Positions 42,925-53,335 are shown, counted from the first letter of the stretch. The stretch: 64,000 nucleotides of DNA from the human T2T-CHM13v2.0 reference genome, Homo sapiens (GCF_009914755.1 NC_060936.1), one strand, 5' to 3'. Notes: generated from the letters alone by a model not told the origin. Numbers and translations are program-made.

Positions 42925-43070
42925 CAATTCTTCGTTATTGGTCTTGATGGGACTGGAGCTCAATGCTTCAGAACAAATTTCCTTGATGCCAAGATTTTAT
43001 TTTCAGTAGATATAAAATGTCAGTTTTCTTCAAAGGAAGACCAATTACCTTGACAAACAAAAAGAACATG
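42925..43070 (-). pseudogene. C-type lectin-like receptor, exon 5 (first CTLD exon, disrupted)
   Basis: Acceptor tatcttctAG|. Across frameshifts it reads ACSFC/CQGNWSSFEEN*HFISTENK/SWHQGNLF*/ALSSSPIKTNNEEL, with C/W spacing matching CD94 (CQEKWVGYRCNCYFISSEQKTWNESRHLCASQKSSLLQLQNTDEL). Donor degenerate (|gaagtg). Confidence 0.88.
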
Positions 43071-43335
43071 CTAGAAGATAACTTTGTCCCCTACAGTCAT
43101 TCAGTGAATTATAATTTTTGCATTATTGTTTTCAATTGTCCTCCCTAACTTCAAGAGAAGTCCTGATATACGAGAGTTTTTCTGACAAGTACACCATTGT
43201 TAACTAACTTTGGTCTTATATTTACAAAGTGAATATTTACCTAATACATATTTACATATATTTACAAAATACATCTAGATTTAAACAGCTTATGTGTGAT
43301 AGATACCAACATTCCCATTGTAAACCAATACTTAC

Positions 43336-43410
43336 CTTTGTTTTGTGATATTATGTTGCAATGTGCAGTCTCAATGGTTGCCTTATTCAGGATCTCTTTA
43401 AGACAATGAA
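43336..43410 (-). pseudogene. C-type lectin-like receptor, exon 4 (stalk)
   Basis: Acceptor aatttcAG|, 75 nt, phase 1-1, open: (I)HCLKEILNKATIETAHCNIISQNK. Perfect donor AAG|GTAAGT. Confidence 0.85.
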
Positions 43411-45249
43411 CTGAAATTCACAATATTTGCAAAAGAGAATACTATTATCATTTTCAAACATTTGGGATGGCAAATAAAACAGATATCAAAAATTTCTTAC
43501 ACACAATTTATGCATTCATTGTTTTAATTGAATGAAGAACAAATTGTAAATTATCATTTGCAATTTATATTAAGGTATGAACTTTTACTTATGAAATATA
43601 TTTATGAGTCAATGACTGGTGATTTAATAAGCACATGTTTGTATATATGATTGATGTTATTCTAAGCAGTTAGTTAACCCAGGCAGTCAGGAAAAAACAA
43701 CCTATGCTATTTTTGCAGCAAACACCTTAGACGTAGTGTACGTCTAATCAGTCACAAAGTACTGTTTATCACGACAATGCTTCATATATCTGTTTCCTTC
43801 TTCACAGTAACATAGCTTTTTCCTACTCAGATTGTCATTATTTTTATGCTGAGGTATTTTAATATTATACAAACTCTCTCTAATTTTCACTTTCCAGTAT
43901 TTTCCACAAATTGCCTCCAGAGTAAACACCCCCAAAGCATACCTTGAATAATGGTACCCTTTCAATCATCTTCAGAGGCTATGAATTATTTATATGCTAA
44001 AATTCTAATTCATTAACATTAAAATTATACAAAATTGTACCATTTACACAATTGTACTTTTTTTAACCAGTTATATTTTTAACTACCTTCATATATGAAA
44101 TCTTTAAACTACATGATTTTGCATTGATGTGTTCTATAATATTTTTATGAATCTGGCACTAGAGATGGCACAATTTGAATTTTTAAAATAAGAATGAATA
44201 TCCCTAATTTGAATTAATTTTAGTCTTAATGGTCCGTGGTCACGTATAAAAGATTTGGGAGACTTGACATGAATTGTAGAAGAAATCTGTCTGCATTTCT
44301 GCTTTACTGAGATCAGATCTGATCCCTGTCCAATAACAAAATCTTATAATATTTTACCCACAAAGTTTCAGTTTAGTCCTGTACAAACTCATGTCCCCAT
44401 GATTTTAAGTTATCTGAACCATGTTATTCCAGCTTGAGTACCAGATGCATTGCTAGACTCATGGAAATAAATGTCATAAGTATTGCTGAGTTGTTCCCTC
44501 GCCAGACCTAGAGTATTGAAGTTGAGTATTTTTCTTATGATGATTTAATGGAAAAAGAAGAAAATATTGTCACTAGTTTTCCATTTGCTCAAATTTGCAA
44601 TTTTCCATTTTGTTCCCAAATTGGGTTATTCCGTATTTTAAATATATTCTCATAGGATGGATGTGGCTAGTCATGGACATGATCTTAGTTGAACGTGAAA
44701 CAACCACTTCCCTATCTTTTTCAAAATGAACTAATGAGAAACCAAATAATCAAGCTAAGTCTTAAGTCATCACTGCATAAGCAAGCCATGCATGAATTAT
44801 TTTTCTACCCAAGAATATTCTTGTTTATTTAGCATTTCCTCCTCTATTTCTGTCATATATTTGATGATTTCTGGTTCATTTATGCTAAACCATTATTATC
44901 CACTGAAGGTTTCCCTTCTAATTGGTAATTCACAGATAGAATTAGCTTATTTGATGCAGGGAACTACTTCTAATGGTTCAACTGCTTCTCTCCTCCCTTT
45001 TGGTTATTAGGACAAAGTTTGATAATAGTAAAACAGAGGGAAAAGCTTCTGTTTATCAGGATATTTTACCAATTTATATTTTATTTCATTTAAAAGTAAG
45101 TATTCACTACACTTAAACTATGCTAGTGTTCTCAAACATTACCAAGGTGTAATTATCAAAGTAGTATGTCCAGTTGCTACAAAACACAGCTTCGCTCTAG
45201 CAATAAAATAGTCTTATATGGAGTGGTAATTCATTTTATCGAATTGTAT

Positions 45250-45770
45250 TATTTTCCAGCTTTATTTAAGTATGACTGACAACAATTGTGTATATTTAGG
45301 GTGTACAATGTGGTATTTTGGTGTAAGTAGACCTGCATAATAATTCCCACAAGCAACTTAATATGTCCATCGTCTCACATAGTTACCTTCTGTGTGTGTG
45401 TGTGTGTGTGTGTGTGTGTAGTGAGAACACTTAAGATCTACTCTCTTAGCTAATTTCAAGAGTCCAATACATTATTGTTAACCATAATTACCATGGTGAA
45501 CATTAAATCTCTAGATTTTATTCGTCTTTTAACTGAAAGTTTGTATCCTTTGACCGATATCTCTCCATTTCTTCTACTGCCTAGACTCTGGAAACCACCA
45601 TTCTACTCTCTGTTTCTCTAAGTTCAACTTAAAAAAAAAGATTCCACATATAAGTGATATCATGCAATACTTTCTGTGTCTGGCTTATTTCACTAAGCAT
45701 AATGTCTTCCAAGTTCATCCATGTTTTCAAAATGGCAAGATTTCCTTTTTTTAAGGCTGAATAATACCCT
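45250..45770 (-). mobile_element. L1MA 3' end with internal (GT)n
   Basis: Antisense L1MA 3' UTR; GT repeat at 45391-45419. Confidence 0.8.
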
Positions 45771-46189
45771 CTCTATATATATGTACACATACATGCAAAC
45801 ACACACACACACATATTTACTTATATTTTACCTGTTATTTTTAGCACCATAATCTACCTAGAAATTATTTTTTACTTTTAAAAAAATTTTTTCAAAATCT
45901 ATTGTTAAATATCTGTCATTTTGAGGAACTTATTGTATCATATTATATATAGACATACACATATATGCACACATTATTTGTACACAGAGACATATGACTT
46001 TATTATTAGACTCCTTCCTTTTGTTTTGATATATTTACTTTATAAACTTATCATGTGAAATTACTCACAGCTTTATTTCTAGAAAGGCTATATCCCTACC
46101 TCTTTTGTTAATATATTTCAACATATATATCTGGGCTGAAACAGCACAACATCATTACAGAGGAGTATCCATTAGAATCTTAGGCCATA

Positions 46190-51160: not shown

Positions 51161-51502
51161 CTGTTCAAAAAGAGAGAAGTTGGCTAATGTCATCAATGGA
51201 AACCAGATTCAGGAGTTGATACTGAAAAGAACTGTCACCAAGAATATTTAACCCACTTGAATTGGTCTAAAATGTAAGTTCATGGGAGCACCGTGCTGTG
51301 GGAAAATATACCTCAGCTTGTGGGGAGTAATTCTAAAAATTATTTTGCAGATTTAGGTGCATCCTGAGAAGATATTAATATTTTGATGTAGATATGCGCT
51401 GTTTATGAACTAACAAGTTGCCCTAGTAAAGAACTCTTCCAAAGGCTACAAAAGAGCACTTCAGAAATCCTACTGTGGGTTTAGTTCATTTCCCTCCCGT
51501 AA

Positions 51503-51800
51503 TTTTTTTTTTTTTTTGAGACAGAGTCTCGCTCTGTCGCCCAGGCTGGAGTGCAGTGGCGTGATCTTGGCTCATTGCAACTTCTGCCTCCCAGTTTCAA
51601 GTGATTCTCCTGCCTCAGCCTCCTGAGTAGCTGAGATTACAGGTGCATACCACCATGCCCGGCTAATTTTTGTATTTTTAGTAGAGACGAGGTTTCACCA
51701 TGTTGGCCAGGCTGGTCTCGAATTCCTGACCTCAGGTGATCCGCCTGCCTTGGTCTCCCAAAGAACTGGGATTAGAGGCGTGAGCCACCGCAGCCGCCTC
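51503..51800 (-). mobile_element. AluS (in intron 2 of the lectin-like gene)
   Basis: Antisense dimer. Confidence 0.9.
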
Positions 51801-52285
51801 CACTCCCTAATTGTTTTTTTTTTTTTTTAAACTATATCTTTCATCTTTGTAACAGAACTAGGTTAAGAACAAAACTCCAACTTTTGCTGTTGGCCAGACA
51901 GGTATTCTGTGACCGTTTTGATAAAAGTTACTTCATCGTGTTCATCATGAGGTATCTCACATCCTCCATTTGTAGAAATACTGAAGCACTAAAAAGACAC
52001 TTAACTTTTTCGAAATTAAAATATCAAAACCAGGAAATTGTGTATGAAACATTCTTTTTCCATGATTTTGGTACACCATTCTAAGTCATCGTGGCCATCG
52101 CCGCCTGGTTGACCATTCTCATTTGCTCTTAACAGAGCACTGTAGGTTACTATGACCCACTAAAAAGTGTAGGGACAAGAAATCAATCCTGATTCAAACA
52201 TTAGCTCAAGAATATTTGTTTTCGTGATTAGTTCATTAAAATATTTAAGCCAAAAAGTGAATCTAGAGTTTTAAATGGTTTTTAC

Positions 52286-52381
52286 CTTTTGTTTTCAAAG
52301 TTTTAGTTATTTTTCCGTTCTGGATATTTGAAGAACAATGAACTTTGAGGTCTGAGTATATTATACTTTCCTCAGAAAACT
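52286..52381 (-). pseudogene. C-type lectin-like receptor, exon 2 (cytoplasmic, ITIM)
   Basis: Acceptor ttttttAG|, 96 nt, phase 1-1, open: (E)FSEESIIYSDLKVHCSSNIQNGKITKTLKTK. Donor AAG|GTAAAA. IIYSDL (52347-52364) fits the ITIM consensus I/V/L/S-x-Y-x-x-L/V. Confidence 0.88.
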
Positions 52382-53253
52382 CTAAAAAAGATTAAAAAAA
52401 TGCATCCAACAACTATAATCCAGCTATATGTATATACACATACTTATATGATAAATAAACATATAATTAAATGGCATATTATATGTGATACAAATTGTCA
52501 CATTTTATAATCATAAGAAAGTTTTAAAATTGGCTCCATTTTTTTTTGCTTTGTGAAATGTGGTAAATTCTTACTCTTTTAAAAAAATTCTTAGTTCCTT
52601 ATCTATAATATACAGGTAACAATACAATAATCGTTTATAGATCTATTGTAGAGATTAAGTTAATGTATATAAAGTCGATAGCATAGTGTTTGAAACATAT
52701 TAACCACTCAATATGTGTTTTTCTTTAGTAGTAGTAATAATACCGGTGGTGTAGAATAGTAATTGTAAGAATATAATGGGCATTAGCATCTGCAGTAAAA
52801 TTGGAAATAGAAGCAAGAGTAGAAATATTCAAATTAATTTAAATGCCTATTTCTGCCTCCTCTTATAGTTGAATTTAATCCTAATGAAAGGAGCATGAAA
52901 AGCCGTTATCTAATTCTCACTAAATAAATTCCTTCCACAACATATTGCGTGTATTCCTTCAGTACAAGTGAAGCAGAACTCATAGACACCAAAAGTCAAT
53001 GACATTCACCAAAAGTCAATAACATTACCCTAAATAATATTAAACCTAGTGCAACTGTAAATATTTACTTACCAAACTATAATTTTCTGAGATTTAAGTC
53101 CCCTCTAATTAGAAAATCCTGAACTCATTTATAAAGACAAAAGATTTTCAAATCCTCCTCTAAAAGTACCTGGTTATGAACTCATTATTTTTAATATTAT
53201 TTTCTCATCAAAAGAAGAGATGATTTAGCAATAACAGCAGAATCTGGTTTTAC

Positions 53254-53335
53254 CTGTATTTATTTCATGAAATGCCACTGGCGAAGGTTGAAGATCATGA
53301 GAGAGCCTGGACAGTGCTGATGTCTCTAGTTCCAT
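53254..53335 (-). pseudogene. C-type lectin-like receptor gene/pseudogene, exon 1 (start exon)
   Basis: Minus strand acaATGG (strong Kozak), 82 nt open: MELETSALSRLSHDLQPSPVAFHEINT+g. Phase-1 donor CAG|GTAAAA joins exon 2 in frame. Confidence 0.7.

What the first reader, a model, noticed from the sequence alone, without database searches (positions are those of the whole stretch)
42925..53335. Hidden spliced gene for an ITIM-bearing C-type lectin-like receptor between GABARAPL1 and KLRD1
Seen: five minus-strand exons in the canonical NKC order: start (82 nt coding), cytoplasmic (96), TM (84), stalk (75), CTLD-1 (146). All four introns have GT-AG ends and all junctions are phase 1. They splice to MELETSALSRLSHDLQPSPVAFHEINTEFSEESIIYSDLKVHCSSNIQNGKITKTLKTKVSPWCIVAVIFAFLYLIALVIVAAMVAKIHCLKEILNKATIETAHCNIISQNKA..., followed by a frameshifted CQGNWSSFEEN*HFISTENK/SWHQGNLF CTLD. 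Known: this architecture (N-terminal ITIM, uncharged TM, Cys stalk, CTLD) defines inhibitory KLR/CLEC receptors such as NKG2A, KLRG1, CLEC12A and Ly49. Rodent Klre1 maps to this interval, but as I recall it has no ITIM and a different sequence. Inference: this is a distinct, probably unitary, NKC receptor gene damaged in the human lineage. I do not recall any annotated gene here, and the ORF track misses it entirely.
Basis: partly seen in the sequence, partly recalled or inferred. Interest (0 to 1): 0.93.

Follow-up and report, generated by a model that had tools for sequence, protein, structure and literature searches.

The report
Conserved lectin-less ITIM receptor stump gene
The spliced gene is real, but it is not a receptor broken in humans: it is the human copy of an unnamed gene kept across placental mammals that encodes only the inhibitory tail, membrane anchor and short stalk of an NK-type lectin receptor.

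Summary
The four N-terminal exons (82, 96, 84 and 75 coding nt; GT-AG introns, all phase 1) are exactly as described. They equal the CDS of the RefSeq model LOC124902875. A decayed first lectin-domain (CTLD) exon follows, with two in-frame TGA and two +1 frameshifts. No trace of CTLD exons 2-3 was found.

The reading "damaged in the human lineage" fails. Protein searches found 34 related "uncharacterized" proteins of 80-196 aa in primates, ruminants, camels, bats, a shrew, a pangolin, carnivores, a manatee and an elephant. None has a CTLD. Chlorocebus shares the human TGA.

Of 21 non-anthropoid sequences, 17 end 3-6 residues after a conserved stalk cysteine. The ITIM is present in 35 of 36 sequences. 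The transmembrane helix is the best conserved part. There are 13 invariant columns against 1.9 expected, and changes within clades avoid conserved sites.

Best reading: an old, lectin-less descendant of an NKC receptor that acts as an ITIM-bearing membrane subunit or adaptor. Function in humans is unproven. It is not a KLRE1 orthologue. I found no paper on it.

The parts
53254..53370 (-). Exon 1: 5' UTR plus the first 27 codons and 1 nt. The ATG is at 53333-53335 in the context tgaacaATGG. The donor is CAG|GTAAAA.
   Evidence: RefSeq row in the hub table. The N-terminal ME(P)ET... and ...EINTEF are shared by relatives.
52286..52381 (-). Exon 2: cytoplasmic tail with the ITIM IIYSDL (codons at 52347-52364) and a K/T-rich stretch before the membrane.
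   Evidence: An ITIM-like motif is present in 35 of 36 family sequences, and the Tyr is invariant in 21 of 21.
51077..51160 (-). Exon 3: transmembrane helix. The most hydrophobic 19-mer is residues 64-82, with no charged residue inside and a conserved Lys at its outer end.
   Evidence: It is the best conserved exon, with mean pairwise identity 0.70 against 0.48-0.53 for the others. Invariant residues are W63, C64, F70, Y74, I76, L78, M84, A86 and K87.
43336..43410 (-). Exon 4: stalk with Cys90 and Cys105 (TGC at 43358-43360). Codons 109 (TCA, 43346-43348), 110 (CAA, 43343-43345) and 112 (AAA) are where the non-anthropoid proteins end.
   Evidence: Cys105 is present in 21 of 21 and Cys90 in 18 of 21.
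43020..43048 (-). Coding start of RefSeq exon 5: nine codons (GNWSSFEEN) and the TGA that ends the human ORF. This lies inside the relic CTLD exon.
   Evidence: The same tail with one change (GNWSSSEEN) ends Chlorocebus P0004.
42922..43070 (-). Relic of the first CTLD exon. The C-x2-W start is at 43055. There are TGA in place of two Cys (43020-43022, 42968-42970), +1 shifts at 42995-42998 and about 42967, an ...NNEELE end, and a GT at 42921-42920.
41818..43019 (-). 3' UTR of the RefSeq model. It holds no CTLD exon 2 or 3, and no AATAAA or ATTAAA lies in 41780-41880.
   Evidence: Hub table.

Best explanation
LOC124902875 is the human member of an unnamed gene family that is single-copy in the human genome and found widely in placental mammals. 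The family descends from a type II C-type-lectin-like receptor of the NKC but no longer encodes a lectin domain.

The conserved product is a membrane protein of about 108 residues. It has a roughly 60-aa cytoplasmic tail with one ITIM, an unusually conserved uncharged TM helix, and a roughly 25-aa stalk with two cysteines. In most non-primates the stalk also carries an N-x-T/S sequon.

In anthropoid primates no stop falls in exon 4. The ORF therefore splices into the relic of the first CTLD exon and ends nine codons later at a TGA that replaced a conserved Cys.

Shown here: gene structure, ORF, motifs, the relic, the breadth of relatives, and site-specific constraint.

Inferred:
- The protein sits in the membrane with its N-terminus inside the cell.
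- It pairs through its stalk cysteines and TM helix, with itself or with a lectin-bearing KLR chain that has no signalling motif of its own.
- After Tyr36 is phosphorylated, it recruits SH2 phosphatases (SHP-1/SHP-2) and dampens activation. It would thus act as an inhibitory signalling subunit rather than a ligand-binding receptor.

Whether the human copy is still made and used is open.
For: Structure:
- Four exons with canonical splice sites and phase-1 junctions; the ATG is in a good context.
- Hydropathy shows one TM segment (residues 64-82, mean Kyte-Doolittle 3.17). The N-side flank has 4 K/R and 0 D/E, which fits N-terminus inside.

Relatives:
- The exon-2 ORF found 7 primate proteins.
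- A profile of those, run over 1.84 billion representatives without length limits, found 13 proteins at E<=0.001. Twelve are 53-112 aa. The last is a weak 1159-aa hit without any Pfam domain.
- The 90%-clustered library gave 34 proteins of 80-196 aa at E<=0.01. They come from apes, Old and New World monkeys, mouse lemur, Bos, Bubalus, Dama, two camels, seven bats, Sorex, Manis, Canis, Panthera, Crocuta, Trichechus and Elephas. None has a precomputed Pfam domain.
- No relative of 231-2000 aa was found.
- 17 of 21 non-anthropoid sequences end 3, 4 or 6 residues after Cys105.
- The gene tree roughly follows the species tree.
- The human genome holds only this locus.

Constraint:
- TM exon identity is 0.70 against 0.48-0.53 elsewhere.
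- JTT+G4 beats JTT by 53 lnL units. There are 13 invariant columns against a mean of 1.86 (maximum 6) in 500 equal-rate simulations. One of the 13 is the start Met, which every predicted protein has by construction.
- The invariant residues are mostly W, M, Y, C, F and K, which have few codons.
- Changes within clades avoid sites conserved in the other taxa. Ruminants: 0 of 37 against 19 of 70 (p=0.0001). Carnivores: 11 of 40 against 39 of 67 (p=0.003). Anthropoids: 0 of 19 against 26 of 88 (p=0.006) at the 0.9 cut.
- The human protein keeps all 13 invariant residues.

Expression:
- Proteins P0008, P0030, P0034 and P0036 come from contigs of 931-2057 bp that carry the joined exons. In human these exons span 10 kb, so the contigs are most simply spliced transcripts.
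Against: - No expression, translation or protein data for human were available here.
- Overall divergence is fast. Human-macaque identity is 84-87% and Bos-Dama 84% over 108 aa. By my recalled genome-wide divergences this is close to what neutral change would give, so average constraint is weak and rests on a subset of sites.
- In anthropoids the depletion at conserved sites is only p=0.11 at the 0.8 cut and p=0.044 at 0.75.
- The two changes unique to human (P3L, A66V) both hit conserved sites.
- Anthropoids have lost the stalk sequon and carry variable junk tails.
- Only species whose ORF is intact get a predicted protein, so the count of intact copies is biased. No rodent, lagomorph, horse, pig or marsupial member was seen.
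- Synteny of the non-human members was not checked.
- All statements on stop positions come from protein ends, not from DNA.
- No binding, dimerisation or phosphorylation was tested.
Confidence: 0.68

Rival explanations
1. Transcribed relic in humans. The family is or was functional in other mammals, but in catarrhines or in humans the gene drifts as a non-coding or junk-coding transcript antisense to the long KLRD1 transcripts.
For: - Amino-acid divergence within catarrhines is about what neutral change would give (with recalled genome divergences).
- The human-only changes P3L and A66V fall at conserved sites.
- The N-glycan sequon is lost, and the C-terminal tails are variable and spliced from relic or repeat sequence.
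- No polyA signal lies at the model's 3' end.
Against: - The ORF, ITIM, both cysteines and all 13 family-invariant residues are intact in human.
- None of 19 highly conserved sites varies among five anthropoids, against 26 of 88 other sites.
- An open 112-codon frame kept in every sampled ape and monkey is unlikely after 40 million years of drift (inference).
Confidence: 0.25
2. Remnant of the human KLRE1 orthologue, since rodent Klre1 lies between Gabarapl1 and Klrd1.
For: - The position is the same.
- The phase-1 introns, and a relic exon that ends in phase 0, fit the 1,1,1,0,2 pattern reported for Klre1 (PMC2193914 passages).
Against: - KLRE1 has no ITIM, whereas this family has one in 35 of 36 sequences.
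- Profile searches with the N-terminal half found no protein named KLRE and none with a lectin domain.
- Cattle and elephant are reported to have KLRE (PMC5350243 and PMC13756075 passages). Bos, Bubalus and Elephas also have this gene, so the two coexist.
- Carnivores lack KLRE (PMC11484026 passages) but have this gene.
Confidence: 0.04
3. One reading: a full-length ITIM-bearing lectin receptor that became a unitary pseudogene in the human lineage.
For: The relic CTLD exon with stops and frameshifts lies downstream of intact N-terminal exons.
Against: - The terminating TGA is shared with Chlorocebus.
- No relative in any species carries a CTLD.
- There are two stops and two frameshifts in about 134 nt, and CTLD exons 2-3 are absent. 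That is far more decay than the roughly 1% divergence of the human lineage allows (inference).
Confidence: 0.02
4. Annotation artefact. The short proteins are chance ORFs that gene predictors call on a decaying pseudogene in many genomes, with no selection anywhere.
For: - All members are automatic predictions named 'uncharacterized'.
- Average divergence is fast.
- There is an ascertainment bias towards intact ORFs.
Against: - Strong rate heterogeneity, and 13 invariant columns against 1.86 expected.
- Within-clade avoidance of conserved sites in three clades.
- The same start and nearly the same end in at least eight orders.
- Short contigs carrying the joined exons.
Confidence: 0.05

Closest known systems
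Inhibitory type II C-type-lectin-like receptors of and near the NKC (NKG2A/KLRC1, Ly49/KLRA, KLRI1, CLEC12A, DCIR/CLEC4A)
   Same: - NKC location, and a type II layout with an N-terminal ITIM, uncharged TM and Cys stalk.
- Phase-1 introns between these modules.
- The relic exon aligns to the start of their lectin domains. Best is CLEC4A at E=0.0015, then mouse KLRC1 at 0.35 and CD94 at about 0.5.
- The nearest human exon is CLEC4A's first CTLD exon.
   Different: - No lectin domain is encoded in any of the 34 relatives.
- The N-terminal half shows no detectable similarity to theirs.
- The subfamily of origin cannot be told from 25 aligned residues.
KLRE1
   Same: The same interval next to KLRD1, and a KLR-type intron pattern.
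   Different: - KLRE1 has a lectin domain and no ITIM.
- It coexists with this gene in cattle and elephant.
- No sequence match was found.
NKG2-F / KLRC4 (recalled as an NKC gene with a truncated lectin domain)
   Same: An NKC type II chain reduced to tail, TM and a stump. The protein-atlas feature search listed an 'NKG2-F-like' cluster at 0.78 and a short 'KLRF1' cluster at 0.90. These are leads only.
   Different: It is at another locus. No sequence similarity was detected by HMMER. The properties of NKG2-F given here are recalled, not tested.
ITIM-bearing transmembrane adaptor proteins LST1/A and SIT
   Same: They are small, disulfide-linked membrane proteins with a very short ectodomain. 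Their tyrosine motifs bind SHP phosphatases (abstracts in the search listing for PMC8111073 and PMC2193021).
   Different: There is no homology (no Pfam or sequence match). As I recall, those adaptors have the opposite membrane orientation. This is a resemblance in likely function only.
DAP12 / DAP10 (recalled)
   Same: Minimal Cys-bearing ectodomain, a conserved TM helix used for pairing, and a cytoplasmic tyrosine motif. They serve NK lectin receptors.
   Different: They are activating, pair through a charged TM residue, have the opposite orientation, and are unrelated in sequence. Nothing was tested here.

Membership tests
NKC type II C-type-lectin-like receptors (KLR/CLEC) | Gene lies in the NK gene complex | tested here: met
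   The hub table places it between GABARAPL1 and the KLRD1 coding exons. One search confirms the window is chr12:10106001-10170000.
NKC type II C-type-lectin-like receptors (KLR/CLEC) | Type II topology: N-terminal cytoplasmic tail and a single TM segment | tested here: met
   There is one hydrophobic segment at residues 64-82 (mean KD 3.17). The N-side flank has 4 K/R and 0 D/E. This is a prediction only.
NKC type II C-type-lectin-like receptors (KLR/CLEC) | Separate tail, TM and stalk exons joined by phase-1 introns, and a first CTLD exon ending in phase 0 | tested here: met
   Compared with the 1,1,1,0,2 pattern reported for Klre1.
NKC type II C-type-lectin-like receptors (KLR/CLEC) | Encodes a C-terminal C-type lectin-like domain (PF00059) | tested here: not met
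   - Only a broken first CTLD exon remains.
- No Lectin_C match in three minus frames of 30001-43100.
- None of the 34 relatives has a Pfam domain, and there are no longer relatives.
KLRE1 orthologue | Cytoplasmic tail without an ITIM, and a lectin domain present | tested here: not met
   The ITIM IIYSDL is present and there is no lectin domain. KLRE1 features are from PMC2193914 passages.
KLRE1 orthologue | One gene per genome at this position (should not coexist with KLRE) | tested here: not met
   Bos, Bubalus and Elephas have this gene and are reported to have KLRE. Positions in those genomes were not checked.
KLRE1 orthologue | Sequence similarity to KLRE1 | tested here: inconclusive
   No KLRE-named or lectin-bearing protein appeared among the hits of the N-terminal profile. 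No KLRE1 sequence was available for a direct alignment with the relic exon.
ITIM-bearing inhibitory receptors | Cytoplasmic (I/V/L/S)xYxx(L/V/I) motif | tested here: met
   A match to [IVLST]xYxx[LVIF] is present in 35 of 36 family sequences. The one without is an isoform that skips exon 2. Old World monkeys have T at -2 and manatee has F at +3.
ITIM-bearing inhibitory receptors | Tyrosine phosphorylation and SHP-1/SHP-2/SHIP recruitment | not testable with these tools
   Needs biochemistry.
Transmembrane adaptor proteins (LST1/A, SIT type) | Short ectodomain with cysteine(s) forming disulfide-linked dimers | not testable with these tools
   Cys90 is present in 18 of 21 and Cys105 in 21 of 21.
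Transmembrane adaptor proteins (LST1/A, SIT type) | Homology to a known adaptor | tested here: not met
   No Pfam family matched, and there were no hits outside its own family. It is an analogue at most.

The most novel reading that the evidence does not exclude
This is an unrecognised inhibitory signalling chain of NK and T cells. It would be a lectin-less, type II counterpart of DAP12/DAP10, kept for about 100 million years. It would pair through its conserved TM helix and stalk cysteines with KLR chains that have no motif of their own (CD94 next door, KLRE, KLRJ) and supply an ITIM in trans. If so, some 'motif-less' or 'activating' lectin receptor complexes could be switched to inhibition without a dedicated inhibitory lectin chain.
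Probability: 0.2. Interest if true: 0.85.

Novelty: new variant of a known kind. Interest (0 to 1): 0.62.

Why it matters
Comparative maps of the NKC state that nothing lies between GABARAPL1 and KLRD1 in humans, and that humans and carnivores simply lack a gene there.

The evidence here points to a gene that is conserved but has never been studied. It keeps only the inhibitory tail and membrane anchor of a lectin receptor. If the protein is made, it adds a new inhibitory component to NK or T-cell signalling, next to the CD94/NKG2 checkpoint genes.

It also gives a clear case of a receptor surviving the loss of its ligand-binding domain, and it corrects the gene content of a well-studied immune locus. 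If the gene is dead in humans but alive elsewhere, it is still a lineage difference worth knowing for animal models.

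Tried and rejected
- **Hao et al. 2006 (PMC1413923):** not held.
- **Exon 2 alone as a query:** too short. The 42-aa stop-to-stop ORF around it worked.
- **Second half of the relic exon alone:** no PDB hit.
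- **Pfam Lectin_C over 30001-43100, minus strand:** nothing. It also missed the known relic exon, so this is weak evidence of absence.
- **Motif scan for WIGL-like, WxWxDG and FIC-like strings in 19000-42922:** nothing.
- **Pfam on family members:** only chance hits.
- **Human paralogue of the N-terminal half:** none.
- **Relatives of 231-2000 aa:** none. The tool itself calls this weak evidence.
- **Complex prediction for a homodimer:** not available.
- **AC022075.1 / TP53LC04, a known lncRNA-encoded peptide:** this is KLRK1-AS1, another locus.
- **Literature searches:** LOC124902875 gave 0 papers and the motif IIYSDLKV gave 0 papers. Searches on KLRE, NKC and GABARAPL1 gave no description of this gene. 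Averdam 2009 and Kelley 2005 do not mention KLRE or GABARAPL1.
- **Supplementary tables of the comparative papers:** not opened. They may list gene models in this interval.

Full report
**1. Observation**

On the minus strand, four exons are bounded by AG...GT and join in phase 1. They are 53254-53335, 52286-52381, 51077-51160 and 43336-43410, with 82, 96, 84 and 75 coding nt. Donors are CAG|GTAAAA, AAG|GTAAAA, AGA|GTAAGT and AAG|GTAAGT. Acceptors follow pyrimidine tracts, and the ATG sits in tgaacaATGG.

The exons are the coding exons of the RefSeq model LOC124902875 listed by the hub. With RefSeq's fifth exon (acceptor at 43048) the ORF is 121 codons plus TGA.

**2. The relic lectin exon**

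From the Cys codon at 43055 the sequence reads as the start of a C-type lectin-like domain, but across three frames:
- C-x2-W...EEN, then TGA (43020-43022), then HFISTENK.
- A +1 shift in the A-run 42995-42998, then SWHQGNLF, then TGA (42968-42970).
- A second +1 shift, then ALSSSPIKTNNEELE.
- An end in phase 0 before a GT at 42921-42920.

Read with X at the breaks, the first 39 residues matched 18 PDB sequences at E<=10. Of these, 17 are lectin-like domains aligned from their first residues. CLEC4A scored 0.0015, mouse KLRC1 0.35 and CD94 about 0.5, and the first TGA falls on the conserved Cys. The other hit is an antenna-complex subunit. The second half alone (24 aa) found nothing.

In the human genome the only other match is at chr12:8149208-8149282 with E=0.137. 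That exon is CLEC4A's first CTLD exon.

Pfam found no Lectin_C in the three minus frames of 30001-43100. A motif scan of 19000-42922 found no WIGL-like or WxWxDG strings. CTLD exons 2 and 3 are therefore gone or beyond recognition. Both tests are weak, because Pfam also missed the relic exon 1.

**3. Not a human loss**

The 42-aa stop-to-stop ORF around exon 2 retrieved seven proteins. Six are 'uncharacterized' predictions from Pongo, Symphalangus, Chlorocebus, Aotus, Macaca and Piliocolobus. All stop soon after exon 4, with unrelated tails. Chlorocebus ends GNWSSSEEN, which is at the same TGA as human.

A profile of these (A1) was run over 1.84 billion representatives with no length limit. 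It found 13 proteins at E<=0.001. Twelve are 53-112 aa, and the last is a 1159-aa weak hit without Pfam domains.

A broader profile (A2) was run on the 90%-clustered library. It gave 34 proteins at E<=0.01, 80-196 aa long, none with a precomputed Pfam domain. They come from primates including Microcebus, from Bos, Bubalus, Dama and two Camelus, from seven bat genera, and from Sorex, Manis, Canis, Panthera, Crocuta, Trichechus and Elephas. Five are unnamed contigs. No relative of 231-2000 aa was found (weak by the tool's own word). No rodent, lagomorph, horse, pig or marsupial member appeared.

**4. Where the proteins end**

I aligned 26 sequences, with the human one built in the script. The 21 non-anthropoid sequences end as follows:

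| End of protein | Count | Which | Human codon at the stop |
|---|---|---|---|
| 3 residues after Cys105 | 13 | all Laurasiatheria except four bats | 109 (TCA) |
| 4 residues after Cys105 | 3 | Microcebus, P0008, Trichechus | 110 (CAA) |
| 6 residues after Cys105 | 1 | Elephas | 112 (AAA) |
| Other ends | 4 | bat models | - |

Each of the three human codons is one base change from a stop. Anthropoids read on through SQNK and splice.

It cannot be told from proteins alone whether the ancestor already stopped there, or ended like human in the relic exon with later neutral stops. Either way, no sampled species translates a lectin domain. The conserved unit ends near residue 108.

**5. Constraint**

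- Mean pairwise identity over 21 full-length sequences is 0.53 (exon 1), 0.53 (exon 2), 0.70 (TM exon) and 0.48 (stalk).
- Thirteen columns are invariant: M1, Y36 of the ITIM, W63, C64, F70, Y74, I76, L78, M84, A86, K87, L95 and C105. M1 is invariant by construction, since every predicted protein starts with Met.
- On the fitted tree, 500 equal-rate JTT simulations gave a mean of 1.86 and at most 6 invariant columns. Adding gamma rates improves lnL from -2645.0 to -2592.0, with alpha 1.42.
- The gene tree groups primates, ruminants with camel, carnivores, and afrotherians, much as the species tree does.
- Within clades, variable sites avoid positions conserved in the other taxa:

| Clade | Cut | Conserved sites variable | Other sites variable | p |
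|---|---|---|---|---|
| Ruminants | 0.8 | 0 of 37 | 19 of 70 | 0.0001 |
| Carnivores | 0.8 | 11 of 40 | 39 of 67 | 0.003 |
| Anthropoids | 0.9 | 0 of 19 | 26 of 88 | 0.006 |
| Anthropoids | 0.8 | 7 of 45 | 19 of 62 | 0.11 |
| Anthropoids | 0.75 | 8 of 52 | 18 of 55 | 0.044 |

- An ITIM-like motif is present in 35 of 36 family sequences. The exception skips exon 2.

Against this, the overall rate is high. Human-Macaca identity is 84%, human-Chlorocebus 87%, Bos-Dama 84% and Canis-Panthera 66%. By recalled genome-wide divergences, the close pairs are near the neutral expectation. The sample also holds only copies with open frames.

**6. What it is not**

- KLRE1 has a lectin domain, six coding exons and no ITIM. 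Its authors found no human counterpart (PMC2193914 passages).
- Reviews state that humans lack KLRE and KLRI, and that carnivores lack both (PMC5350243 and PMC11484026 passages). [quoted passage not shown]
- The present family occurs in carnivores, and also in cattle and elephant alongside KLRE. It carries an ITIM, and its profile retrieves no KLRE. It is a separate lineage.
- Its N-terminal half has no paralogue in the human genome. The four exons score 4.8e-12 to 6.9e-4, and the next hit is 0.238. It has no Pfam family.
- The atlas feature search put it nearest to a 61-member chordate 'hypothetical' cluster, probably its own. Next came short 'KLRF1' (0.90) and 'NKG2-F-like' (0.78) clusters. 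These are leads only.

**7. Likely mechanism**

Shown: one hydrophobic segment at residues 64-82, with a basic N-side flank of 4 K/R and no acidic residue. The ITIM tail is therefore predicted to be cytoplasmic, and the stalk with its two cysteines to be outside the cell. Most non-primates also have an N-x-T/S sequon in the stalk.

Inferred: by analogy with KLR stalk cysteines, and with the small ITIM adaptors LST1/A and SIT (abstracts in the listing), the protein would form disulfide-linked dimers and recruit SHP phosphatases once Tyr36 is phosphorylated. The strong conservation of the TM helix, above that of the tail, suggests pairing inside the membrane, possibly with another receptor chain. 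None of this was tested. The complex and structure predictors were not available.

**8. Human status**

- The human ORF keeps every invariant residue.
- It has two private changes at conserved sites, P3L and A66V.
- It lacks the stalk sequon.
- It carries a 13-residue tail beyond the conserved end.
- No polyA signal lies at the model's 3' end.

I put the odds that the human protein is made and functional at roughly even.

**9. Novelty**

The locus is annotated only as a predicted, uncharacterised model. Text searches for the LOC id and for the ITIM peptide found no paper. The NKC comparative papers I read in passages do not mention a gene here. AC022075.1/TP53LC04 is a different locus, KLRK1-AS1. 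Supplementary tables and Hao et al. 2006 were not seen.

Noticed in passing
window 32397-32470 and 30831-30860, minus strand: The alternative C-terminal tails of the Macaca and Piliocolobus models (DGTI.LHENKLRDATDSTL..., ...CTRIEIK...) correspond to human sequence here. In human both stretches carry in-frame stops. So the monkey tails come from exonised downstream sequence that is closed in human.
   Followed up: partly
window about 37630-37740, minus strand: The Pfam match to the L1 ORF1 dsRBD-like domain (PF17490, E=0.00012) marks an L1 fragment between the relic exon and the KLRD1 upstream exons.
   Followed up: no
window 51077-51160 (exon 3): Models from four species (siamang P0003, Piliocolobus P0007, Panthera onca P0014, Crocuta P0037) skip the 84-nt TM exon in frame. 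This predicts a TM-less cytoplasmic isoform that recurs across orders.
   Followed up: no
window 42996-43001, minus strand: An AATAAA lies inside the A-rich frameshift site of the relic exon, about 20 nt after the TGA that ends the human ORF. No polyA signal lies at the RefSeq 3' end near 41818. The real transcript end may be much closer to the stop.
   Followed up: no
window 40357-40704 and 41210-41700: Alu-like translations fill the RefSeq 3' UTR region of the model. Much of the annotated last exon is repeat.
   Followed up: no
outside the window (KLRK1-AS1, window coordinates 144590-179323, plus strand): The lncRNA AC022075.1 (KLRK1-AS1) is reported to encode a 100-aa TP53-induced peptide, TP53LC04 (PMC9248879 passage). 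It is another small ORF in the same gene complex, unrelated to this one.
   Followed up: partly
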